From: Veleropilina oligotropha
Taxonomy: Eukaryota
DNA: 34,605 nucleotides
Direction of reading: 5' to 3'
Assembly (NCBI GenBank): GCA_048128005.1
Contig: JBEUKZ010000002.1
Coordinates: forward strand, 248,001 to 282,605
The notes beneath the pieces were generated by a model. The model ran no database searches, was not told the origin of the DNA, and was given only the letters and a program-made list of their open reading frames with translations. Of this stretch, positions 3,245 through 15,763 are shown piece by piece; position 1 is the first letter of the stretch; the number at the start of each line of letters is the position of its first letter. Both the position numbers and the translations under genes were made by a program.

Positions 3245-3270
3245 GGGGGTGTTTTCAGAATATTCCCCGC
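3245..3270 (+). repeat. Left terminal inverted repeat GGGGGTGTTTTCAGAATATTCCCCGC
   Basis: Reverse complement matches 14734-14759 at 25 of 26 positions. Confidence 0.9.
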
Positions 3271-3278
3271 GGGGGGTC

Positions 3279-3456
3279 CATCTACATAAACAATTGGCAA
3301 TTCTTCATGTAGGCCACGGAGCGTCCGTATACATAAACAATTGGCAATTCTTCATGTAGGTCACGGAGCGTCCATCTACATAAACAATTGGCAATTCTTC
3401 ATGTAGGCCACGGGGCATCAATCTACATATACAATTGGCAATTCTTCATGTAGACC
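3279..3456 (+). repeat. Left subterminal tandem array, about 3.8 x 47 bp
   Basis: Unit CATCTACATAAACAATTGGCAATTCTTCATGTAGGCCACGGAGCGTC starting at 3279, 3326, 3373, 3420. Confidence 0.95.
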
Positions 3457-3666
3457 AAGTCTCTCTTTCTTACGCAGCATAACAAGCGCAGTGCCCTCGG
3501 AGAGTCAACCGGGGCCAGAATGGTTTCAGAATAGTCCTCGCGGCCCGCATATTATTAGAGACTTGATTACGTATGTCGTAATAACTTCGTGATTACACCA
3601 TAGCCATTTGGGGGACAAATTTCAAATTAGAGAATGGTATGTTAGTGTCATATCGAATGATACGTG

Positions 3667-6600
3667 ATGCCCCTCATCAGAGAACTACGTAATTTAGCGA
3701 AAGACTACGTGCTTCCCGGCAGGTCGAAGCTCAACAACACGACCTCATCAAGGTAATAGCCGACGTCCGTGCTGCCGAGTTTCGGAGGAGACTCGAGCGG
3801 GCGAGAAAACGGGAAGATTCCCCGCCATTCGTGGAGATGTTGAGAACCACCCAAAAAGAGGCCGTCGTGCTCGCTAATTGCAACAGCTCAAGGACGAGGT
3901 CAATGTGGCCCTCAAGGTCAGTAAATACAAAACCCAAGCTGAGAAAAAGCCCGGGCTACGACACAAGCCACTCCGTAACTTCGCGGATCGAATCGCCAAG
4001 CCGCACCTACACGGTCTGACTAGGTCTCGGAAAGAGATCCTTGTCCAGGCAATTGCTCGGGAGTGGCCCGATATTCTGAGATATCAGTTAACCTCGGATG
4101 AATACTATTCCCTTCTCGTTGACGATGGCGCAGTCCTGTTCCCTGATGGGGCGTATATCACAAAAGGCGCCGACATCATTCGTGAAGAAATTACCGAGGC
4201 TATTGACGGTCGTAGATTCGACTTCCAGCCTGTTGTAAGGGGACCTGACACAACAGACGAAGTTGCGGTGTATTGGGTATCGTGCGAAAAGGAGGATCTT
4301 AGGGTGACGCTGGGCATGGCTTCGGAGTTGTTGGAACTTCTGGACCCCGACACACGATACAAGTTGTTCACGGTAGTGGGAACTTCGGCCAAGGAGCCCC
4401 TAGCCCTAGTGACAGAGAAAGTGGGTGTCTTTGAGCATTACATCAAGGGGAAGGGGGTGGTTTGCGGAGACCAGGTCAGCGCCGGGGCTCTTTATGGTAT
4501 CGACCAGAATATATGCGAGAAGGGGGGAGATTATCTCGTATATGCCAGGTATGAACTGCGTCCGCTTCCGGAGCAGCAGGAAGAACCGGGGCCAATGCTG
4601 GCCCATCAAGAAGGCGGAGAGTTGGTAAACTGCTTCGTTCGCTGTGTGGTGGACCACTTCCAGAACAAAATGACGAGGTTAACAAGGGGCCTCAGACAAA
4701 TTATTAAGCGGTTCGACCAAATGCTTGCAGAAACGGGCTGCGCAAATGAGGATATGTTCTCCATTGAAGTGGCTCTCAACGTCAAGCTCATTGACGTTGA
4801 CGCGTTAGGCAACACTCTATGGGACAGCGGTAAATACAAGAGCCGGTCCAAGATTCGGGTGCTATGCCATAACAACCACGCCTGGGCATACATCCCGACC
4901 GATCTGCCCAAGATCTTACAGGTTTACGGCCTCGACGACACCGCAGAAAGTGCAGTGTCTGCTATTCTGGAAAAGGCGGGACGAAAGACCACTGTGGCCC
5001 AGAAAACCACGGACCAAAATGTAAGAGAGGTTCCGGTCTCATTTGCCGCCAGGGCCATCCCATCGGCGATCCGGGTCTGGGTATGTGGGCAGGCTCTCGT
5101 GGGGAGCGATGGTTCCCTGTGGGGGCCGAGGGCCGGGGCAGTAGCTATTGACCGCGCTTTCGAGGACGAGACGGGGTGGCATCCTTCCGAGATTCCCGAA
5201 GAGCTTGAGGGGCTTCAATAGGAATACTACAGAGCGACCCACTCCATGGGTGGCGCCATGTCTTACCGGTTCCAAAAGTGGTTGTCCCGCGAGGAGATCA
5301 AGCCAACGCCCGAAAGTTGAGGCCAATGTTTGGAACTCTAACGGCTCAGCTGCAGTCACAAGTGGTCACCATCATATCGACCTACGCGCGGCCTACCTTG
5401 GCTGCGTGGACTATCTTTGTGTGTGTGTGTGGGGGGGGGGGGGGGTGGAGATACCATAGATGTATTTCGCGAGTATGAGTTCCCGACGAGTATGATGCGT
5501 GGAGCGAATGTCGAAGACGTGCCCCTAATTGACGTCCTCACCCTGAACGGAGCGGGGCAGCTCACCGCGTGGCAATTCAGCCGAGGGACGCACACCTACA
5601 CCATAGGCCATGTAGGCGAGCACCTGCGGGAGAAGCAGGGTTGGATCACTACCCCCAAGCTTGCAAACTTGATTGGCTCTGGTGATCTGGTGAAGGTCAC
5701 AATGCGCGAGGTGGTATACAGCGTGGGCATAAAGGCCGATATCATGTTCCCAGCAAGGAATCTGGCTGTGCGCTTCGTTGGGAAATATTCTCGCCATCCG
5801 GATGAGTTAATCATCCTAGTCCGTGATCCAAACGAAGCCGCCTACTTGGCGAATGTTCTCGCCGGCACTGGCCGTCTCTTGAACTTCGAGAAGGCTGACA
5901 ATGTCCACCTCATCCAGTACAAGGACGGCAAAACTAGGACGTAGTGGTGCCACATTCGCGCCTTCATTCTAGCGTATACGAACATCGCCCTCCTCTGGAT
6001 GCTACGCAGATTCCCACAATAGGTTGTCATTCGTGTCTGCACCGACGCCATATACGTCAAGAGCCTTCCCGAATCGGTCGAACATATGCTGATCGAAGAC
6101 CATCCTCTTTAGCGAAAGACTACGTGCTTCCCGGCAGGTCGAACCCTCGGGCTATGAATGGCGCTCAGAGGTTGCTGCCTGAACGACAGAGCATGCTGGT
6201 CAGCTCGAGTTGGTGGTGCTCACCCAGGAGAACGACCTCGCCGAAGAACACCGTAAAAGCCCGAGACGTGGTCTACAGGATGCACTAGGCCAGACGATCC
6301 ACCACTACCTATGTCTACCCGTGGGCAAGCCGGTCGTTGCTTGGGACCCGGCTGCCCTGGGACACCGACTTGATAACCTAGCCGATGTCATCGTCATCGA
6401 CGAAGATCCTGACGACCGTCCTTGATTATCTCGCCCGCCGGACGTGTCAAATCATATGCGCCGGTGATCTGGGGCACATTCCGCCATGGGGCGATAAAGA
6501 AGGCCCTCACCACATGTTATCAGACTGGGCCGACCCCAACATGCGGTTGTTTGACACCCGCTATAGGTGCCTGTGCGAGGCGTGTGGTGAGCCTTGGTCC

Positions 6601-7584
6601 TGATGTAGCTGTCAAAATGGGTCAACGTCGGCTTTGCATGGCGAAAAGGCACAGAAGTAGTGCGCTAGCGACCAGCAGCAGCTCCATGTCATCAGAGAGA
6701 TTTTGGGCGCAACGCCGTTCGTAGAGGATGTAGATTTAACCGCAAGCCCGATGACATCTGGATCTGCTCCACGAACAATCTAGGCGCGCATGTCCAGACC
6801 CAGCCGCTCCAGCACCACATAACAGCTCACCCTCAGCTTCCTGCTAAAATTCGATTCGACCCAGACGGCAGCATATCGCACCGGTACGGCAAGCAGGGTC
6901 GGCCTATTGAGGTACCGGGTAGTCGATAAACCGTGCCGGCCTATCGAGGGACCATCGTCGAAGTCCCCTTTGAACTAGTCGAAAACCGCTGGAGTGGAAA
7001 TATGCGGGGCGGGGGATGGTGCATAGGGTGATAGGGAAGACCATTCAACCGCCCAGGCGCCGATACATCGTCGACCACTGTCTAAGTGGCTGGGTGAGCA
7101 ACGCCGTATATACAGCGGTGAGCCGAGCCCTGCTGATGGACCAGCTTGTAAGGGTTCTGCCTTATGACGATGCTCAGGGTGATATAACTCCCACCGATAA
7201 GCAGGCCACACCTTCCCTAGAGCTCATTGCTGCAAGGCTCAAACGCTACATGGTTGAGGATCGCCAAAAGAAACTGTCCCACTACACGGGAGCACACCAT
7301 AAACTCACCGTCGACCACGTGCTCGACATGATCGATGCCGCAGAAAGAAGTGTGTGATCTGTCATACTGCTCTCCTTCTTCGGGGCTACATGAAATTTCA
7401 GGAACAGACATTCAGTATCGACCGCCTGGATGACAGCCAGGGTTACTACAAGTGGAACGTCCGGTTGACGTGCCTGTTCTGTAATCGTCGACAAAAGCAC
7501 GTGGACTTTCCAGACGATTGATGCGTGGACTATCCAGACGACGGATGCGTGGACTTTCCAGACGACAGATGCCGGTACTGGTGA
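3667..7584 (+). pseudogene. Fused replication protein: Rho-N-like HeH, OTU-like domain, divergent family-B DNA polymerase, SF1 (RecD/Pif1-like) helicase, HNH nuclease
   Basis: Joined across stops and frameshifts: MPLIRELRNLAKDYVLPGRSKLN/HDLIKVI (3667); NCFVRCV...LCHNNHAW (4628-4885); IDLRAAYLGC (5376), GWITTPKL, RFVGKY, HIRAFILAY, RVCTDAIYV (~6035); VVLTQENDLA, VIVIDE (6387), AGDLGHIPP, RYRC, VHRVIGKT, YTAVSRA; CVIC..SIDRLDDSQGY...NVRLTCLFCN (7351-7490). Confidence 0.8.
7501..7572 (+). repeat. 3 x 24-bp tandem repeat at the 3' end of the replicase gene (VD[F/Y]PDDxC)
   Basis: GTGGACT[T/A]TCCAGACGAnnGATGC at 7501, 7525, 7549, in frame with the HNH domain. Confidence 0.9.
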
Positions 7585-7599
7585 AGCGCTAGGCAGGTC

Positions 7600-8321
7600 T
7601 CAGCTGCAACCTTGTGAATCCGTGCTTTGAGAAGGCCTTGTAGTAGAGCACGGACTGATTGGGTGCCGATACACGGCGGCGAATCGGGTAGGGTTATGTG
7701 TCCACCGCGGATCCGTTGTGCGGCAGCGCCAGGTATCTATTGGCTCTTCTTTATTTGTGGTGATATAAACCATCGTGCCAATCGGTAACAACGTTTCATG
7801 TGGCGGTTATTGTGGCGCCACTAGCAGAACCTGATACATTTTTCCGCCTCCACTGGAGGAAGACCAGTTAGTCGTGTTGGCGCCGCATTCATATCTGCGA
7901 TTACAGCTGAAAGAACGGACAACCACTGGCGATTGTTCCGGCCGCTGTTCATCTCTTCATGTGCTTGCTTCCTGAATACTCAACAATGCCTGCGATCGGT
8001 AATGACCTGGATCTGCGCGCCGTATATCGACTCCGTACTTCCCTAGAAGAGTGGATGCTTCCCCCTTGAATTCGTGCCCGTCATCCACCATTAGCGTTTT
8101 TGGCCAGGTTAAGGGGCCGGTCTTGTAGATATCGGCAAACGCTTTAGCTACTTCACTGGCCGATTTCGATGTTAGTGGCCAGGCAGCCTTGTAGCGATAG
8201 GCCCTGTAGACCAAAGTCAACGCATACTTGTACGTTTTACGGCCGACCTTGTCATGTGAGCGGTAGAGCAGATCGGCCTGGTGGATCACACCGGACCTAT
8301 CCTCTGTGGAACGGGCAAATA
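7600..8321 (-). pseudogene. Polinton-type rve (DDE) integrase, core and C-terminal part
   Basis: IHQADLLY.SHD...YKYALTLV...RYKAAWPLTSKSASEVAKAF...WPKTLMVDDGHEFKG; after a frameshift RQWLSVLSAVIADMNAAPTRLTGLPP; then RTTDPRW; segment with the catalytic Glu appears deleted. Confidence 0.9.
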
Positions 8322-9306
8322 TATTTAAATAGATTTAAATGAAATTTGTTTGGGTTTAGAAATCGCATTACTGCCACTCATATAAAAACCCATTGTAGTA
8401 ATCTTGTCATTTATAACCTGCTCTGTTTCTTTAAATGATCATCTATGCGATTTTTAAATTGATTTACAGACGTCGCTTCCACTACATTATTTGGAAGATT
8501 ATTCCATTCATCGACAACCCGATTTGAGAAAAAGTGTTTTCTAGCGTCCAGTCGGAATCGTTTTTTGTAAATCTTGAATTTATGCCCACTGGTATGGCTA
8601 TGGTTCATCTGAAAAAAAGAAACTCTTGTCAACGTTGTCTTTTCCTGTAGACATTTTAAACACCCCTTATCCTTCTTAAAGATAATGTTGTTAGGTTCAG
8701 TGCTCTTAGTCTGTTCTCATATGGTAATTCCCTCAACTCGCCTATCAATTTCGTGGCTCTTCTTTGGACTTGCTCTTAAATTTTGATATCCTTTGCATGA
8801 TATGGACACCATGCTTGTACTGCATATTCTAAATGCGGCCTAACCATTTTCTTGTATAGGCGAGTTATGATGGCTTTAGATTTAAAATTAAAGTTTCTCT
8901 TTATCATTCCCAATATTTGATTTCCCTTTTTGTCTGATTCCGCACATTGATTAGATGATTTGAATGTCTTGTCTACCCATACACCCAAATCCTTTTCTTT
9001 TTTCAACTACTTGTAAAGGTTCCGAAACCCATTTCATAATTATAGCTGTTGTTGTCATAACCCACATGCATTACTTTACATTTAATGGCGTTGAAAATCA
9101 TTTGCCAATCCTCAGACCACTTTACCACATTATTTAAGTCACTTTGAAGTTTGTTTGCATCTTCTTCAGTTTCGATAATTCTATGCCATTTGGTATCGTC
9201 AGTGAACTTTTTTACTAGAGATGTAACGACGTCATCAATGTCATTTAAATATATGAGAAAAAAATGGGCCCAAAACAGAACCTTGTGGTACTCCACTTAA
9301 TACAGG

Positions 9307-10446
9307 TGTAATAGGCTATATTCACCTTCCATCAATCTATACCCGGGTAGAGTCTGGTCTGGGCCAAACTATACCCCGGGGTTGAAAATAACACAGACTG
9401 GTTTATACCCCGGGATATTGTTTGGCCTTGACCGGACTATACCCCCCTAGTCCAAATAATACCTACTTGTGTTTTTAATAAATTAGTCTGTATTTCCAAA
9501 TAATAATTAAAAAAATAATTTGTCCCTGCAACATAGAAGATCAGGATCAGTCACGCTTTTATCAATCCATGTATAGTCAACGTAAGTACGAAGGGATCGA
9601 TAAATCCCGTCACTTTATTTCCTCTTTAAATAAAAGCTATTTGACATTGACATTATATAAAATACTAACCAGAACCACACAGTGCGGGAGCCCGGAGCGG
9701 AGCTTGAGGACCTGCTCAGCGAGCGGTAGCGAGCGCGGCCGACGGAGGCGGGCCGGAGGCCGCCGAATGATGCTCCTTGGCATTATTTAAATGATGGAAG
9801 TGAATTTGTAGACGTTTCGTCGAATATGAATTGTAACTTATTGGCGCATCCTTCCCTATAAGTCTTGCCTAAATTATAGTAATACAAATGAATGCCCGAT
9901 CGGGCTTGAAGCCGCGTCATGGGCAAATATATAAGACATGGAGGTTTTAGTAGTTTGCGCGTCTTTTAAAGTTCCTTTATTGATTTTTTTATTCGACGAA
10001 ACGGTTCGTCGAAACGGTCATTCGACGAAACGTCTGTTGAAAAATTCGACGATGCTAATCTGTAGATCTGGACTGCGATATCGGTGAAATACGTTTATCG
10101 GTAAGTCATTATTGTGTCATTTTCTGATGTGCACAGTACTGCGTTCGAACCCCGTATCGACGTTTTCTTTGGGCAAGGACATAAGCCACAATTGCTCGTC
10201 TGATCTGATAGAGATGTTAAACCGTGGATTCCGACTGCGATATCAGTGAAATACTCTGAAAGTGGTCGTAAAATCTCTGATTCTAGATGGTATATTCTGG
10301 CCTGGGGAGGTATGTAACAGGCTAGCCTGTATAACACTCCGGGGTATAAAGTGGACTAGCTCAGAATATACCCAAGTATATTCTGAGCTAGTCCACTCTA
10401 ACCCCGGGTTATAGTCCGGGCAGGGGGTATACTCGAAGCTGTTACA
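9307..10446. mobile_element. Non-autonomous TGT...ACA DNA transposon (Ginger-like) nested in the LINE
   Basis: Ends TGTAATAG / CTGTTACA, 4-bp flanks CAGG (9303-9306) and CCGG (10447-10450), ATACCCCGG-type subterminal repeats; removal restores RT peptide KWVPVLSGVPQG. Confidence 0.75.
9810..10035. repeat. Perfect 16-bp inverted repeat pair (possible small MITE) inside the Ginger-like element
   Basis: AGACGTTTCGTCGAAT (9810-9825) and ATTCGACGAAACGTCT (10020-10035), extra TTCGACGAAAC units at 9991-10020. Confidence 0.5.
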
Positions 10447-11568
10447 CCGGCACCCACTTTGACTTAATCCCATTTATTACAACCCTCTGTTTTCTATTTT
10501 CTAGCAACGTTTAGTATTGGGCCTTTTATTCCATGATTACTTAATTTTTGTAATAGTCTTTTTTGTGGTACTTTATCGAATGCTTTTTTGAAAATCAAGA
10601 TATATGATATCAACTGGTTTGCCCGTGTCGATTGCAGTTGTTACATCTTCAAAAAATTCCAGTAAGTTGGTTAAGCAAGATCTTTTCTCCATAAACCCAT
10701 GTTGACTAAGGTTTAGTAGGCCAAACACATTTATGTGTTTTAAGATAGTATATAATATAGATTCCATTATTTTGCCTACTATTGGTTATTTGCTCTACTT
10801 CCCTTTTTAAATATTGGGGTAATGTTTCCAGTTTTCCAGTCATCAGGCAAGCTGCCTTCTTGTAGAGATTTATTGAATATCAAGGTTAATGGCTTTACTA
10901 ATTCATTCCTACCTGCTTTTAGCAATTTGGGATATATGCTGTCTGGACCTGGAGTTTTAGTGACATTTAATAAGCTTATCGTTTTCAACCATTTCCGTAG
11001 TAATTTCAATACTTTCACAAAAAATTTCATGGTCCTGAAATATATGCTTTACCGGTGGAATATTTACCGTATCCTCTAGCGTATATAAAGATGCAAAATA
11101 CTTGTTTAGAGATTCTGAGATTTGTGCATCATCTGATATTACATTTCCATTTTCATCGTTCAGGGGACCTACAACATCTTTTGTTTTTTGTTTTGACCTA
11201 ATGTATGTATAAAATGATTTATGGTTTTCCTTGATGTTTTTTGCAAGATTTTCTTCAAAATATTTTTTGGCTGCACGGATTTCATTTTTACTTTTTTTCT
11301 CACATTCTTTATATTTTTGGTGGTCATCTTTGTCATGTGACTCTCTGTATCGTTTCCAACGTTTTTATTTCCTTCTTATAATTTTTCTTATTTTTCTGAT
11401 TAGCCATGGTGGTGAATGTTTTTTGCGTCTAAACTTTAATGGAATATTTCTTTTCATTATTTCTTCGATGTTATTTCGAAAAGCCTCCAACGTTCTTTAG
11501 CATTTAGGTTTTATGTTCCCTCACAGTTTATATTTCGGAGATTTCACAACTGTTTTTGTGTGTAGCTG

Positions 11569-11664
11569 AAATACTTCTCTAGGAGGTTTCGTCTGCATGT
11601 ACCGATCAACCTCCTGTGTCGAGATCCACTCCCGGATTCTTTTCTTTGAGGCTGCGCCCTTTGG
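11569..11664 (-). pseudogene. Integrase N-terminal fragment separated from the core by the LINE
   Basis: Reads KKRIREWISTQEVDRYMQTKPPREVF and joins in frame to ARSTEDRSGVIHQADLL at 8316 when the LINE is removed. Confidence 0.75.
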
Positions 11665-11665
11665 T

Positions 11666-12133
11666 TCACTCCAGCGCTACCCAGCGGGTCTGCTCTCGGA
11701 GTTCCTTTAATACCGAGTTGTATTTTTGCGTGAATACCCATACACTTTGTTCGGCATGTCTCCCGCTAAATGCTAACTCAGTCAACATATATTTTTTCTT
11801 GGTTAGAGCCTTACTGGCGGAGCAGTCATCGATGATGTACAGTGTTGATTCTCCCTCGAACTGCTTGTAGAACCCCCGCAGCCAATCGTGAAGACGCTCA
11901 CCTGGGGGGATTGTGTACACCTCTGGGTCAGTCAAGATCCACGGACAGGTCTGGTATGATTGGTTGTACTTGATCGAGAGGCAGATAATTGCAATGTGTC
12001 GCAACGTACTCCGATAGAATCCTTTCAACAGTTCAAGAATAAAAACAGTCTTCCCACAACCGGTCTGGCCACATATAATTGCTGAGTGGAGATCTTTGGG
12101 GTACGGGAACCCTTCAGTGCAATACTGAGACAT
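11666..12133 (-). pseudogene. A32/FtsK-family genome packaging ATPase, C-terminally truncated
   Basis: Walker A GQTGCGKT, Walker B LYIIDD, SGRH, VWVFTQKY, ELREQ; ends abruptly after WVAL. Confidence 0.9.
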
Positions 12134-13324
12134 TCTCGATGTTCAGCTGTATATCCATAAGCATGTACAGATAAACGTTCAATGCGCCTGCTGCATCACC
12201 TATCTTAGTGATCTGAATGGTGATGCCCTCGCTGGCGTTCTCTGCCCTATATCAAGCCACAGTGCATAATTTCTGGTCATGAATTCACCCAGAGTGACAT
12301 CTGCCAGAGCCAACTCCTTTGCAACTAACGCTACCTCAGGATGCCGCTTGCTAATCGGTTTGGATGCGAACTGCTTTTTGGCATCTTCCCACACCTGGTA
12401 TGAACGCATGCCCTGACTGTAGAGTTGGTTCGGTAACCCTCAATTGTGACCTCGACCTTTGTGATCTTTGTATTGTAAAAGGCTTCGGTGTCGCGAGCAA
12501 ATGGCGCTGCCATGACCTCGCCGTAACATTCAGATTGAGATTCCACAAGGTGTCGCTCTTGTCTCTGGTAAGCTTACGATGCCGGAGGACACGGTCGTAC
12601 AGAATGGCGAGGCGGCCCGAGAAATGGTTGCGTATCATTCTAGCCAGTTCTACCTGGGTGACCATGTCATATTCCAGGCTAATATTTTCGATGCTATAGC
12701 TGGCTCTGGAGTCATCCAGGGCCTTGATAGTCCTAGAATAGTCATTAAACGTGAGTTCATACTCAAGCCTGTCCCACAGAGCGCTGTGGTAAAATGGCAT
12801 TTGGCTCTCCAGCAACTCAAAGTTGAGCGGGGTGTGGTATCTATTACCGTAGGCGAAAGATATTGCCACATCTTCAGACGTTCTGACAGCGTCTGCCGCA
12901 GCAACAGGCAGCCAGGTAGATTTGTTCATAGCTGGCATCAATTCATTAGTATTGGGCATTCTTGCGCACCTGGTATATCTTTCAGAGATCGTTGTAGCAT
13001 TGATACACGTCGGAGTCGTCGACAGACATGACCTCGTTTCCACTTATCTTGATCATGGTCTTTAGATCCAGCACGACCAAGGTTCTGAACTACTGTTCTG
13101 TTCGGGTTAGATGAGTTTAGAGAGATTGTAAATGCCAAGTGTGCAGTCTCTGGCACGATAACGTCATGGGCCCCAGGATTAGGGAACCTAGCCAGCAGCT
13201 GCTGGTTGGCGCCAATAGTTGATGGGTTGTTGGTTATGATAACAGACTGGCGAATACCCTTGACCCAAAGGGGCTCTCGCAGTCTTCGGTATGGATAAAG
13301 TTTGCGTTCGTATGGACTGGCCAT
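12114..13324 (-). pseudogene. Major capsid protein (putative double jelly-roll), frameshifted
   Basis: MASPYERKLYPYRRLREPL.VKGIRQSVIITNNPSTI..NQQLL.RFPN; LNFELLESQMPFY..L.DRLEYELTFNDY; FYNTKITKVEVTIEG; ENASEGITIQITK...ALNVYLYMLMDIQLNIEN; about 400 codons, beta-rich, adjacent to packaging ATPase; recognised as similar to invertebrate Polinton capsids. Confidence 0.75.
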
Positions 13325-13359
13325 ATATATTAGATGAATATCACTATGCCTGTATTCAA

Positions 13360-14530
13360 ATGGCGTAGTTCGTTAACCATATATTCGAGCCTGATGATGA
13401 CATCATCGACGATGATGATATGGTCGGCTCCACTGACTGGAGTCGGCCACAGGAATGAACCAGTGGTCTGCGGCAAGAGTTTGTGAAACAGCTGTTGATG
13501 AGGGACAAACCCCGGCCACGGGGCGTGATTACTCTAAGTTTTATTATGTGGATGGGCAATTGCGACTGAAGGCCTATCCGAACATTGATCTAATCCATTA
13601 TCGCACCGGTAAGCCGAAGTCGTTGTCAACAATAGCTAGCCAGCGTGGTGAGGGTAACGCGATCAGAGATGGGTTGGTTTTTTTAGACTGGAAGAGAGGA
13701 CAAAAGCTGCCTTCAAAAGCTGTTGCAGATCTCCAGGCAGCCAACAATGAGTTGGGCGGAGCGGCCGGCAAGGTAGATAACGTAGAACTGCAAGACTTGC
13801 GATCCACAAAATGGAGACGACGTTCACAGATGCCGAAATTGATAATATACTGACGACAATGCGCAACCCTCCGTTAAATCTGCGCGAGCTACGCGAGTTT
13901 CATAAGGCAATGCAGACAATTCGAGGCGAGCTAAAAAACAATTTAGCCAAACTATCTGCGCTTGATGACCACATTGCTCTAGAGAAACAAAAGCTCGACC
14001 AGACAGATAAAAACGGTGTGGAACAGTTTGCTCGTCGACAAATGGCAGAACGCCTGGTCGACTTAAATGATGAACGAGCAGCTCGCCTAGAGGCGGCCTC
14101 ATCCAGTCGGAATGCCGTTCGCTCTCAGATAAACCGTATCAGAGAAACCATAAACAGCATTCTGAATGAAGACACAACGCTTGCCGAGCGCGTTCGTACA
14201 CTCTTCCGAGAGCAGGGGGTGACGATCGCAACCATACTCACCGCTATTGGCTGGCCATCTCGACGCTGGTACTGGCACTAACCGGTGGAGCAACAAGCGC
14301 CCCACCAATAGCGTCTCCGGCACCCCCACCACGGCATTCAGGCGATGCGAAGCATGAAGGTCTGACCGAGTGGGTAAAAAGCATATACAGAACATGGATC
14401 GGATACTGGATAAACTAGCAGGGAAAGCAGCAGCTGCACTCACAGGCATCATCGGAAGCCTGCTTTCGAGGCTTATCAATCTGTTTGGTATTTTTAGATA
14501 TTTTTTGCCCCAAAAAGTTGTGTCAAACGT
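13360..14530 (+). pseudogene. Coiled-coil protein with acidic N-terminus and hydrophobic/amphipathic C-terminus (function unknown)
   Basis: MA*FVNHIFEPDDDIIDDDD; ORF pieces 13455-13853 and 13811-14281 (LRELREFHKAMQTIRGELKNNLAKL...TTLAERVRTLFREQGVTIATILTAIG), then AISTLVLALTGG and LDKLAGKAAAALTGIIGSLLSRL. Confidence 0.7.
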
Positions 14531-14535
14531 CTGTT

Positions 14536-14676
14536 GGCCTACATGAAGAATTGGCAATTGTTTATGTAGACAAACGCCTGTCGGCCTACATGAAGAAATG
14601 ACAAATATTTATGTAGACAAATGCCCGTCGGCCTACATGAAGAATTGCCAATTGTTTATGTATACAAATGCCCGTC
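14536..14676 (-). repeat. Right subterminal tandem array, 3 x 47 bp, inverted relative to the left array
   Basis: GGCCTACATGAAGAATTG[G/C]CAATTGTTTATGTA core at 14536, 14583, 14630. Confidence 0.95.
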
Positions 14677-14733
14677 GGCCTGCGAACTATGGCTGGGAGC
14701 TGCGGCGAGTCAATTTGACCACCTGGGACAGCT

Positions 14734-14759
14734 GCGGGGAATATTCTGAAAACTCCCCC
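14734..14759 (-). repeat. Right terminal inverted repeat GCGGGGAATATTCTGAAAACTCCCCC
   Basis: Inverted match to 3245-3270. Confidence 0.9.
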
Positions 14760-14829
14760 CTGCGGCATAAAAATGTTTTCGAGAGTGACATTGATGTGAA
14801 ACTTTGTTAGTTTCTATATTCACCAAGGT

Positions 14830-15763
14830 ACTTATCGTTCACGGTTATTGTAATTGTCACAAAAATTGACAAAAAATAATATTTCTATGAATATTCATGA
14901 ATATTCAAATGAGATCATTAACATAAATGTACCGGGTGGGATTGAACAAAGCATCAGTTCCATTTTGGTACTAAATTTACTATTATAACTTTGTTATATG
15001 TGAGATAAGGTCGATTTCCTAAGTGACCTTGGTGTTAGGCAATGTTAGATTTTATGTTAATTAAGCTACTTATATATACAATAAAAAGGGAATCATAGTA
15101 ATTGTGATGACCATGGGAGTACTTTGATGTATATTTGGCATATAAATATATTTTAAAATTATTTGTAAGTGTAAAGTTATTGAAATTGTCGCTAAAATGA
15201 CAAAAAATCAATATTTCTATGAATATTCATGAATATGCAAATGAGACAATTAACATAATTATACTGGATGGGATTGGAATGCATCAGTTCCATTTTGGTA
15301 TTTAATTTATTATTATATCTTTAAAACTAAGTGAGATATGATCGATTTACTATTGTGCATGCCAGTTTTAGAGAGTAACTTTGATGGCAGGCTATGCTAA
15401 TTTATATGTTAATTAAGCTGCTTTTATATAATAAGAAGGGCATCATATTAATTGTCATGGCAATTGGACTACATAGATGTATGTTGGGCATAACAAATTT
15501 TTTACGTTCCTTCGAGGTTTTAGAGATCACTGTTATTGAAATTTTAGTAACAAATTGACAAAAAATCATTATTTATATGAATATTCATGAATATGCAATT
15601 AGATAATTAACATAAACGCATTGGATGTGATTGGTCAATGCTTTAGCTCCAATTTGGTACTAAATTTATTATTATAACATTAAAACTAAGTGAGATATGG
15701 TCGATTTACTGCTATGCATACCGGTTTTCGAGAATAACCTTGGTGGCATGCTATGATAATTTT
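14830..15763 (+). repeat. ~350-bp AT-rich tandem array, left part
   Basis: Recurring TATGAATATTCATGAATAT (14887, ~15218, ~15577) and TATGTTAATTAAGCT (15054, ~15405). Confidence 0.85.

What the first reader, a model, noticed from the sequence alone, without database searches (positions are those of the whole stretch)
3245..14759. Compact endogenous Polinton-like virus with non-canonical ends and a five-gene layout
Seen: both inverted termini and five recognisable genes (fused replicase +, integrase -, ATPase -, capsid -, coiled-coil protein +), about 8.3 kb after removing the LINE, tightly packed (15 bp between replicase and integrase stops; capsid stop overlapping ATPase start). Known: canonical Polintons are usually 15-25 kb, start with AG/AGTAGT, make 6-bp TSDs and carry an adenain-like protease and minor capsid. 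Inference: this is a decayed copy of a distinct animal lineage of integrating capsid-forming elements with a different replication module and GGGGG termini.
Basis: partly seen in the sequence, partly recalled or inferred. Interest (0 to 1): 0.9.

Follow-up and report, generated by a model that had tools for sequence, protein, structure and literature searches.

The report
Decayed endogenous Polinton-like virus copy
This is a dead, LINE-interrupted copy of a small capsid-encoding, integrase-bearing DNA virus that has inserted into an animal (probably mollusc) genome; it belongs to the broad Polinton-like group, and only its unusually small apparent size might be new.

Summary
A 26-nt terminal inverted repeat (3245-3270 / 14734-14759) followed by 47-bp subterminal repeats bounds five broken genes and a ~3.2-kb LINE.

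The five genes:
- A ~1350-aa replicase with a SAP domain, ~830 aa of unassigned sequence, a Dda-like SF1 helicase and an endonuclease-VII/HNH domain.
- An rve integrase.
- An A32-type packaging ATPase.
- A capsid gene, shown by fold to be a genuine double jelly-roll major capsid protein (Z 27.9 to PBCV-1).
- A conserved coiled-coil/transmembrane protein of unknown function.

- The LINE sits inside the integrase gene.
- A deletion joins ATPase residue ~146 to integrase residue ~41, so "five genes, 8.3 kb" is a minimum. Genes such as a penton or protease could have been lost there.
- The replicase architecture matches the Tlr1-like helicase already known from Polinton-like viruses. A 2026 preprint reports comparable helicase-polymerase fusions in animal "group 2 Maverick-Polintons". 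Its polymerase palm domain could not be tested here.

Each of the four gene families searched has dozens to hundreds of relatives in eukaryotic assemblies (one named: Elysia crispata). None was found in IMG/VR.

Verdict: a real but dead new variant of a known kind, of moderate interest. The compact layout is unproven.

The parts
3245..3270 (+). Left terminal inverted repeat (26 nt, begins GGGGG)
   Evidence: pairs with 14734-14759 at 25/26. 0 matches expected by chance in 100 shuffles.
3276..3457 (+). Left subterminal array: 3.9 copies of a 47-bp unit, each with an imperfect ~15+15-nt palindromic core. Probable protein-binding sites (inference).
3667..7584 (+). Replicase pseudogene. SAP/Rho_N-like N-terminus (~3667-3794), ~830 aa unassigned, SF1 Dda-like helicase (~6210-7240), endonuclease-VII/HNH-like domain (~7240-7500), then a 24-bp tandem repeat in the acidic C-terminal tail.
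   Evidence: Aligns to the 1358-aa homologue P0001 at ~60% identity in 8 pieces with 10 stops. Domains on homologues: Rho_N E 1e-8, AAA_30/AAA_19; Dda-like helicase E 2e-11, endonuclease VII E 2e-10. Natural stop read at 7582-7584.
6107..6209 (+). Internal lesion of the replicase. Homologue residues 823-895 (Walker A region) are absent. In their place lies ~100 nt that includes an exact 36-nt copy (6108-6143) of 3693-3728.
   Evidence: (family D7).
7589..8325 (-). Integrase pseudogene, distal part (homologue residues ~70-323: rve core and C-terminal domain).
   Evidence: rve E 5e-6 on the window piece, below Pfam's cut-off. Homologue P0347 reaches 36.6 bits, over the 32.6 cut-off. Mapping. Stop at 7589-7591.
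8326..11553 (-). 5'-truncated non-LTR retrotransposon (LINE) inserted inside the integrase gene. Borders are approximate.
   Evidence: It separates integrase residues ~41-77 from ~70-323. G+C 39-40%. Weak RVT_1 match E 0.012. RT-like motifs recognised by eye (recalled, not tested).
11554..11664 (-). Integrase pseudogene, proximal part (homologue residues ~38/41-77). Residues 1-~40 are absent.
11665..11671 (.). Deletion junction. The ATPase ends at residue ~146 of ~199 and the integrase resumes at residue ~41. Anything that lay between the two genes is lost in this copy.
11672..12133 (-). A32-type packaging ATPase pseudogene, C-terminally truncated.
   Evidence: Pox_A32 E 1e-8, 35.4 bits, over the cut-off. 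53% identity to residues 4-146 of a 199-aa relative. ATG at 12133-12131.
12114..13324 (-). Double jelly-roll major capsid protein pseudogene.
   Evidence: Maps to 410-430-aa homologues in 5 tblastn pieces with 7 stops. 515 cluster representatives at E<=1e-3. Homologue model pLDDT 87; PBCV-1 Z 27.9, Sputnik 19.0, mavirus 17.7.
13325..13359 (.). 35-nt AT-rich spacer between the divergent capsid and coiled-coil genes. Putative bidirectional promoter (inference).
13360..14546 (+). Coiled-coil/transmembrane protein pseudogene. Family of ~440 aa: acidic N-terminus, small domain, long coiled coil, C-terminal hydrophobic helices.
   Evidence: 426 homologues at E<=1e-3. Mapping. No Pfam, PHROG or ESM Atlas assignment. 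Ends read.
14524..14681 (-). Right subterminal array: 3.4 copies of the 47-bp unit.
14734..14759 (-). Right terminal inverted repeat.

Best explanation
Window 3245-14759 is a dead, integrated copy of a small double-stranded DNA virus or virus-like transposon of the Polinton-like supergroup.

SHOWN.
- It is bounded by a composite inverted terminus of about 215-235 nt: a 26-nt tip plus 3-4 palindrome-bearing 47-bp units.
- It carries a morphogenesis module: a double jelly-roll major capsid protein and an A32-type packaging ATPase.
- It carries an rve (DDE) integrase.
- It carries one large replication protein built as SAP, about 830 aa unassigned, SF1 Dda-like helicase, endonuclease-VII/HNH nuclease.
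- It carries a conserved coiled-coil/transmembrane protein.
- All five genes are broken.
- A LINE has landed in the integrase gene.
- A deletion has fused the truncated ATPase to the truncated integrase.

INFERRED MECHANISM.
- The integrase inserts the linear genome through its termini.
- The 47-bp palindromic units are binding sites for the integrase or for the replicase's DNA-binding domains.
- The large protein replicates the genome in the manner proposed for Tlr1-like (pPolB-S1H) helicases of Polinton-like viruses.
- The ATPase packages DNA into a capsid made of capsid-protein trimers.
- The coiled-coil/TM protein is a virion or host-membrane component.

The visible gene set is a minimum. 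The intact genome was at least about 8.7-9 kb and may have held more genes at the deletion site.
For: - TIR and repeats.
- Capsid fold: the 18-sequence alignment A2 gave a model with pLDDT 87.3 and pTM 0.87. Foldseek PDB top hits are SGIV and PBCV-1 capsid proteins at E ~6e-17 to 8e-17, mavirus at 1e-13 and Sputnik at 7e-13. BFVD top hits are giant-virus capsid proteins. VIA-align Z: 27.9 PBCV-1, 25.7 faustovirus, 19.0 Sputnik, 17.7 mavirus, 15.7 adenovirus hexon, 14.5 PRD1. Pfam Capsid_N matched in 6 of 18 members, best E 1.7e-5.
- ATPase: Pox_A32 over the cut-off.
- Integrase: rve; 52 homologues of ~320 aa.
- Replicase: 7 long homologues at ~55-61% identity. Domains.
- Same element: replicase, integrase and coiled-coil homologues sit on contigs of identical length, for example 5790, 32833, 264016 and 706816 nt. 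This suggests, but does not prove, that they lie together.
- Decay.
- LINE and deletion.
- Foreign composition: 48-56% G+C against 30-44% in the flanks.
- The architecture matches the published description of Tlr1-like helicases, which is 1000-1400 aa with a C-terminal SF1 helicase and then an HNH or GIY-YIG nuclease (PMC5499653 section 8 read; PMC11161782 passages).
Against: - No penton (minor capsid) or maturation protease gene is detectable in this copy. A capsid of this type needs a vertex protein.
- The polymerase palm domain that defines Tlr1-like helicases could not be shown. The fold of the middle region failed (pLDDT 32.9). hhalign against phi29 polymerase gave no signal. Pfam, PHROGs and PDB sequence searches found nothing there.
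- No target-site duplication could be recognised.
- No virion, transcript or sequencing run was available.
- Host identity is inferred from a single named homologue (Elysia crispata).
Confidence: 0.85

Rival explanations
1. The lineage's intact genome is larger (roughly 12-16 kb) and ordinary for a Polinton-like virus or group 2 Maverick-Polinton. The deletion at 11665-11671 removed further genes, such as a penton or protease, that lay between the ATPase and the integrase. On this reading the five-gene layout is an artefact of decay.
For: - The deletion junction removes at least ~53 ATPase residues and ~40 integrase residues, plus an unknown amount between them.
- An environmental relative has an extra 440-aa gene between its capsid and coiled-coil genes, a further ORF upstream of the capsid gene, and five small ORFs beside the ATPase gene. 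By tblastn against the window its capsid pieces are 37-64% identical, its ATPase 53% and its coiled-coil protein 48%.
- Several coiled-coil homologues sit on contigs of 13.9-15.5 kb.
- Double jelly-roll capsids need a vertex protein.
Against: - Every other gene junction in the copy is very tight: 4 nt, a 20-nt overlap, and 35 nt.
- One capsid homologue sits on an 8836-nt contig. Another capsid cluster recurs on Logan contigs of ~7.2 kb (7218, 7218, 7255). This hints at small genomes, but contig length is weak evidence.
Confidence: 0.4
2. The lineage really is a five-gene genome of about 9 kb. It would then be either a dependent (satellite-like) element that borrows vertex and maturation proteins from a larger related virus, or one that makes them from one of its two large unassigned regions (the replicase N-terminus or the coiled-coil protein).
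For: - Tight packing elsewhere, and no free coding space in the copy. The non-coding stretches are 209 nt, 4 nt and 35 nt, plus the termini.
- Small contigs carry homologues.
- The replicase has ~830 unassigned residues.
- Published Tlr1-like helicases contain a protease domain thought to process them (PMC11161782, passages).
Against: - The deletion makes the inference from this copy unsafe.
- No fold evidence exists for a jelly-roll in either large protein, because no model was obtained for them.
- A relative clearly has more genes.
Confidence: 0.35
3. The locus is a chance mosaic: unrelated mobile elements nested next to each other between fortuitous inverted repeats, not one element.
For: The region does contain a nested LINE and internal rearrangements.
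Against: - The TIR is far beyond chance.
- The ends share ~215-235 nt.
- Genes abut or overlap.
- Homologues of different genes share contigs, including a 5790-nt contig that fits replicase plus integrase.
- Capsid, ATPase and coiled-coil genes travel together in the environmental relative.
Confidence: 0.03

Closest known systems
Polinton-like viruses and Tlr1 elements that encode a 'Tlr1-like helicase' (pPolB-S1H fusion). Sources: Krupovic, Yutin & Koonin 2016, PMC5499653 (abstract and section 8 read); PNAS 2024, PMC11161782 (passages read).
   Same: - One large replication protein of 1000-1400 aa with a C-terminal SF1 helicase followed by an HNH-type nuclease.
- A long unassigned N-terminal half.
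- A double jelly-roll capsid protein plus an A32-type ATPase.
- Tlr1 also combines this helicase with an rve integrase.
   Different: - Host is an animal, probably a mollusc, rather than a protist.
- The visible genome is about half the 14-40 kb usually quoted.
- No penton gene is seen.
- A conserved coiled-coil/TM gene is present.
- The polymerase palm and vOTU domains were not demonstrated here.
'Group 2 Maverick-Polintons' of animal genomes (bioRxiv 10.64898/2026.06.19.733378, section 5 read).
   Same: - Found in animal genomes, molluscs included.
- rve integrase.
- pPolB often replaced by an SF1 or SF3 helicase fused to a polymerase.
   Different: - Whether this capsid or ATPase falls in that group's clusters could not be tested. 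The profiles are in closed supplements.
- No phospholipase or cysteine protease is seen here.
- The visible size is smaller.
Canonical Polintons/Mavericks (Orthopolintovirales). Defining features are taken from the abstract of PMC5499653 and the preprint above. The AG termini and 6-bp TSD are recalled from memory, not from a call.
   Same: - Long TIRs.
- rve integrase.
- A32 ATPase.
- Double jelly-roll capsid protein.
- Endogenous in animals.
   Different: - No recognisable pPolB (PF03175 type).
- No adenain-like protease.
- No penton.
- Termini read GGGGG.
- About 8.3 kb visible against 15-25 kb.
Unnamed environmental relative found as contaminant contigs in a bacterial MAG (L002 and L006).
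   Same: Shares the capsid protein, the ATPase (53% identical) and the coiled-coil/TM protein (48%) with the window. Capsid tblastn pieces are 37-64% identical.
   Different: - Different gene order, with at least seven additional ORFs on the two contigs.
- No rve integrase or replicase of this type found in that bin with the queries used.

Membership tests
Polinton-like virus with Tlr1-like helicase (pPolB-S1H) | Large (1000-1400 aa) replication protein with a C-terminal SF1 helicase domain | tested here: met
   Homologues are 1264-1377 aa. AAA_30/AAA_19 matches at residues ~870-996 lie near Pfam's cut-off. PHROG Dda-like helicase E 2e-11. The window copy aligns over 3667-7548.
Polinton-like virus with Tlr1-like helicase (pPolB-S1H) | HNH or GIY-YIG nuclease after the helicase | tested here: met
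   PHROG endonuclease VII E 2e-10 and endonuclease E 2e-7 at the C-terminus. Weak PacI match E 0.61.
Polinton-like virus with Tlr1-like helicase (pPolB-S1H) | Protein-primed family B polymerase palm domain (with TPR1/TPR2) upstream of the helicase | tested here: inconclusive
   The model of the middle region failed (pLDDT 32.9). hhalign against phi29 polymerase gave probability 0.1. Nothing was found in Pfam, PDB or PHROGs. Motif-like strings seen by eye rest on recalled motifs only.
Polinton-like virus with Tlr1-like helicase (pPolB-S1H) | vOTU-like protease domain next to the palm | tested here: inconclusive
   The same failed model. No sequence match was found.
Polinton-like supergroup (Polisuviricotina-type morphogenesis module) | Double jelly-roll major capsid protein | tested here: met
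Polinton-like supergroup (Polisuviricotina-type morphogenesis module) | A32/FtsK-HerA type packaging ATPase | tested here: met
   Pox_A32 at 35.4 bits against a 22.8 cut-off. The relative scores 55.2 bits.
Polinton-like supergroup (Polisuviricotina-type morphogenesis module) | Single jelly-roll minor capsid (penton) protein | tested here: inconclusive
   No candidate gene and no free coding space in this copy. However, a deletion at 11665-11671 may have removed genes, and the two large unassigned protein regions were not folded.
Canonical Polinton/Maverick | Stand-alone protein-primed PolB | tested here: not met
   No DNA_pol_B_2 or other polymerase family matched in any ORF or homologue. The only replication gene is the helicase fusion.
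Canonical Polinton/Maverick | rve (retrovirus-like) integrase | tested here: met
Canonical Polinton/Maverick | Adenain-like cysteine protease | tested here: inconclusive
   No peptidase family matched among the 24 ORF pieces scanned. The copy is deleted at one junction, so absence from the lineage is not shown.
Canonical Polinton/Maverick | 6-bp target-site duplication and AG...CT termini (recalled definition) | tested here: inconclusive
   The flanks read GGAGGT and CTGCGG, with no convincing duplication at any offset. The paired termini begin GGGGG. A single old copy cannot settle this.

The most novel reading that the evidence does not exclude
The lineage is a genuinely five-gene integrating virus of about 9 kb with a double jelly-roll capsid. 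That is roughly half the 14-40 kb quoted for Polinton-like viruses and the 15-25 kb quoted for Polintons. It would lack separate penton and protease genes. It would then either obtain its vertex and maturation functions from the unassigned ~830-aa part of its polyprotein-like replicase or from the coiled-coil/membrane protein, or live as a satellite of larger relatives that share its capsid, ATPase and coiled-coil genes.
Probability: 0.3. Interest if true: 0.75.

Novelty: new variant of a known kind. Interest (0 to 1): 0.45.

Why it matters
Endogenous Polinton-like elements make up a large share of some mollusc genomes: up to 16% of one assembly, according to passages read in preprint 10.1101/2025.04.19.649669. 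Their gene content and life style in animals are still poorly described.

This locus gives a bounded example of an animal element that combines a Tlr1-type helicase replicase with an rve integrase. Its capsid protein is structurally nearer to giant-virus capsid proteins than to those of mavirus or adenovirus.

It also points to a large, unnamed coiled-coil/membrane protein family that travels with this capsid family.

If the compact layout is real, it would set a lower size limit for eukaryotic double jelly-roll viruses and raise the question of how their vertices are built. If it is not, the locus is one more decayed member of an already recognised group.

Tried and rejected
- Host genome: none is held. 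Other copies, TSDs and copy number could not be examined.
- Earlier findings of this scan: nothing by place or by sequence.
- IMG/VR: no relatives of the replicase, coiled-coil protein or capsid protein, either with single proteins or with a 6-sequence alignment. One alignment was too divergent to make search patterns.
- Metagenome scan: only a 3.5-kb contig holding a frameshifted replicase.
- Prokaryote genome collection: the first scan found nothing. The second found a contaminant contig, L002.
- Within that bin: no match to the replicase, the integrase, DNA_pol_B_2 or Peptidase_C5 with the queries used. The Peptidase_C5 control rang nowhere, so that blank says nothing.
- Sequencing runs: none was listed and no RNA holder was listed.
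- ESM Atlas: no usable hit for the capsid piece or the coiled-coil protein.
- Replicase middle region: the fold failed on a shallow alignment, so no fold search was run on it. hhalign against phi29 polymerase gave no signal at Neff 1.3. PDB sequence searches with the replicase and capsid profiles found nothing meaningful.
- TSD: several offsets were tried by eye. The best was a 5-nt match with one mismatch (TGTGG against TGCGG), which needs different end definitions at the two ends and is not beyond chance.
- Trees with Polinton, adintovirus or PLV references were not built, because no reference sequences could be obtained through the tools.

Full report
WHAT IS THERE

The interval 3245-14759 is bounded by a 26-nt inverted repeat. 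The left copy begins GGGGG, and the right copy differs at one position. There are two matches in the window and none in 100 shuffles.

Just inside each tip lies an array of 47-bp units: 3.9 copies on the left and 3.4 on the right. Each unit carries an imperfect palindrome of about 15+15 nt. Aligned end to end, the two termini share about 215-235 nt at 82% mean column identity. On the right, the unit nearest the tip has been replaced by unrelated sequence. The element therefore has a composite long TIR. Only the terminal nucleotides differ from the AG start that I recall for Polintons.

G+C is 48-56% in the element's own parts and 30-44% in the flanks.

THE FIVE GENES

Replicase, 3667-7584 (+).
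- The window aligns to a 1358-aa protein (P0001) at about 60% identity, in eight pieces with changing frames and ten in-frame stops.
- Homologue residues 823-895, the Walker A region, are missing. In their place are about 100 nt that include an exact 36-nt copy of 3693-3728.
- Seven long homologues were found. One is a hypothetical protein of the sea slug Elysia crispata.
- One 90%-identity cluster has 75 members. At least ten of the 15 members listed are full length and lie on large contigs. Relatives of this gene are therefore intact and multi-copy elsewhere.
- Domains on the homologues:
  - a SAP-like Rho_N motif at the N-terminus (E 1e-8);
  - an SF1 helicase (AAA_30/AAA_19 near Pfam's cut-off; PHROG Dda-like helicase E 2e-11);
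  - a C-terminal endonuclease-VII/HNH domain (PHROG E 2e-10 and 2e-7; weak PacI match).
- About 830 residues between the SAP motif and the helicase have no assignment.

Integrase.
- Homologues are about 320-330 aa with an rve core.
- In the window, residues ~70-323 map to 8325-7595 (-) and residues ~41-77 map to 11664-11554 (-).
- The AT-richer block of about 3.2 kb between them is therefore inserted inside the integrase gene, not between genes.
- That block has only a weak RVT_1 match (E 0.012). Its reverse-transcriptase-like motifs were recognised by eye.

ATPase, 11672-12133 (-).
- Pox_A32 scores above Pfam's cut-off.
- Against a 199-aa relative, the window matches residues 4-146 at 53% identity and stops there.
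- Seven nucleotides further on, the integrase resumes at about residue 41.
- This is a deletion junction. It removed about 53 ATPase residues, about 40 integrase residues, and whatever lay between the two genes.

Capsid gene, 12114-13324 (-).
- A 230-aa window piece found 515 cluster representatives at E<=1e-3 in an exhaustive HMMER search. Full-length members are 408-453 aa.
- An 18-member alignment gave a confident model (pLDDT 87.3, pTM 0.87).
- Foldseek against PDB and BFVD returned major capsid proteins of giant viruses, virophages and related viruses at E down to 3e-19.
- VIA-align gave Z 27.9 to PBCV-1 (352 residues aligned, rmsd 3.2), 25.7 to faustovirus, 19.0 to Sputnik, 17.7 to mavirus, 15.7 to adenovirus hexon and 14.5 to PRD1 P3.
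- Pfam's giant-virus Capsid_N matched 6 of 18 members below its cut-off.
- This is a genuine double jelly-roll major capsid protein. It is structurally nearer to the giant-virus type than to mavirus or adenovirus.
- The window copy has several frame changes and seven stops within its tblastn pieces.

Coiled-coil/transmembrane gene, 13360-14546 (+).
- There are 426 homologues at E<=1e-3 among longer proteins, mostly about 440 aa and mostly on large eukaryotic contigs.
- They have an acidic N-terminus, a small domain, a long coiled coil and hydrophobic C-terminal helices.
- Pfam, PHROGs and the ESM Atlas give no assignment.

PACKING

- The replicase's homologue-like stop (7582-7584) and the integrase stop (7589-7591) are 4 nt apart. 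A premature stop lies at 7519-7521.
- The ATPase ATG lies 20 nt inside the capsid gene's end.
- The capsid and coiled-coil ATGs are separated by a 35-nt AT-rich spacer.
- Without the LINE, the copy is about 8.29 kb. Adding back the minimal losses gives roughly 8.7-9 kb.

IS FIVE GENES THE WHOLE GENOME?

This cannot be decided from the window.

For compactness:
- Every other junction is tight.
- One capsid homologue lies on an 8836-nt contig.
- One capsid cluster recurs on Logan contigs of 7218, 7218 and 7255 nt.

Against compactness:
- The deletion sits exactly where extra genes could have been.
- Several coiled-coil homologues lie on 13.9-15.5-kb contigs.
- An environmental relative clearly has more genes. 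It was recovered as contaminant contigs in a bacterial MAG.
  - It has a 440-aa membrane-anchored ORF between its capsid and coiled-coil genes, and a further ORF upstream of the capsid gene (L002).
  - It has five small ORFs beside its ATPase gene (L006).
  - It shares the capsid gene (tblastn pieces 37-64% identical), the ATPase (53%) and the coiled-coil gene (48%) with the window.
  - No integrase or replicase of this type was found in that bin with my queries.

Contig lengths are weak evidence in either direction. I put the larger-genome reading at about 0.4 and the truly compact reading at about 0.3-0.35.

COMPARISON WITH WHAT IS KNOWN

- Krupovic, Yutin and Koonin (PMC5499653, abstract and section 8 read) describe Tlr1-like helicases of Polinton-like viruses. 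These are 1000-1400-aa proteins with a C-terminal SF1 helicase, an HNH (or, in Tlr1, GIY-YIG) nuclease after it, a protein-primed polymerase-like domain before it, and an uninformative N-terminal ~450 aa.
- The 2024 PNAS paper (PMC11161782, passages read) refines this to TP-vOTU-palm-S1H. It notes that Tlr1 combines this protein with an rve integrase.
- A 2026 preprint (10.64898/2026.06.19.733378, section 5 read) states that animal group 2 Maverick-Polintons often replace pPolB by SF1 or SF3 helicases fused to a polymerase or primase.
- Another preprint (10.1101/2025.04.19.649669, passages read) reports that bivalve genomes are rich in regions assigned to Orthopolintovirales and PLVs.

The replication module here is therefore of a known type, and endogenous elements of this general kind are known in molluscs.

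Two things could not be tested:
- Whether the middle of this replicase is a polymerase palm. The fold failed and profile comparison had no power.
- Whether this capsid or ATPase falls in a named cluster.

I found no paper describing this particular family or a ~9-kb member in three full-text searches. Those searches cover open-access papers and bioRxiv only.

MECHANISM

Shown:
- the parts list and their order;
- the capsid fold;
- the decay of all five genes.

Inferred from the families involved:
- integration by the DDE integrase acting on the termini;
- binding of integrase or replicase DNA-binding domains to the repeated palindromes;
- genome replication by the helicase fusion, protein-primed if the palm and terminal-protein domains exist;
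- packaging by the A32-type ATPase into a trimer-built icosahedral shell;
- a membrane-associated role for the coiled-coil protein.

This copy can do none of these things.

VERDICT

This is a real, well-bounded but dead copy of a Polinton-like virus lineage of animals. Its claim of a new replication module is not supported, and its claim of a compact five-gene genome remains open. I rate it a new variant of a known kind, of moderate interest.

Noticed in passing
window 6108-6143 and 3693-3728: An exact 36-nt copy of the replicase's N-terminal coding sequence sits at the site where ~73 residues of the helicase (Walker A region) are missing. It looks like filler DNA copied in during repair of a deletion.
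   Followed up: partly
window 7500-7572: A 24-bp tandem repeat (3 copies, 89% matches) lies in the acidic C-terminal tail of the replicase. The first unit carries a premature stop.
   Followed up: partly
window 25896-26774 (+): An open frame of 292 aa has a strong Major Facilitator Superfamily match (MFS_1, E 5e-22). It is probably a host transporter exon and the only clear host gene seen in the window.
   Followed up: no
window 14784-15430: Immediately right of the element lie direct repeats of ~330-nt period (families D2, D3, D5) with a short palindrome (I9). This is unrelated AT-rich repetitive DNA, possibly the element's target.
   Followed up: no
window 10339-10408: A 33-nt inverted repeat with a 4-nt spacer (88% complementary) lies inside the LINE.
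   Followed up: no
L002 1641-2963 (-) and 3-236 (-); L006 127-2403 (-): The environmental relative carries a 440-aa protein with a C-terminal hydrophobic helix, an N-terminal fragment of another protein upstream of the capsid gene, and five small ORFs (several hydrophobic, one cysteine-rich). None has a Pfam assignment. Any of them could be a vertex or membrane protein.
   Followed up: partly
window 29218-29400, 32935-33117, 33910-34311: Long AT/TA microsatellites, up to 202 dinucleotide copies, lie in the right part of the window.
   Followed up: no
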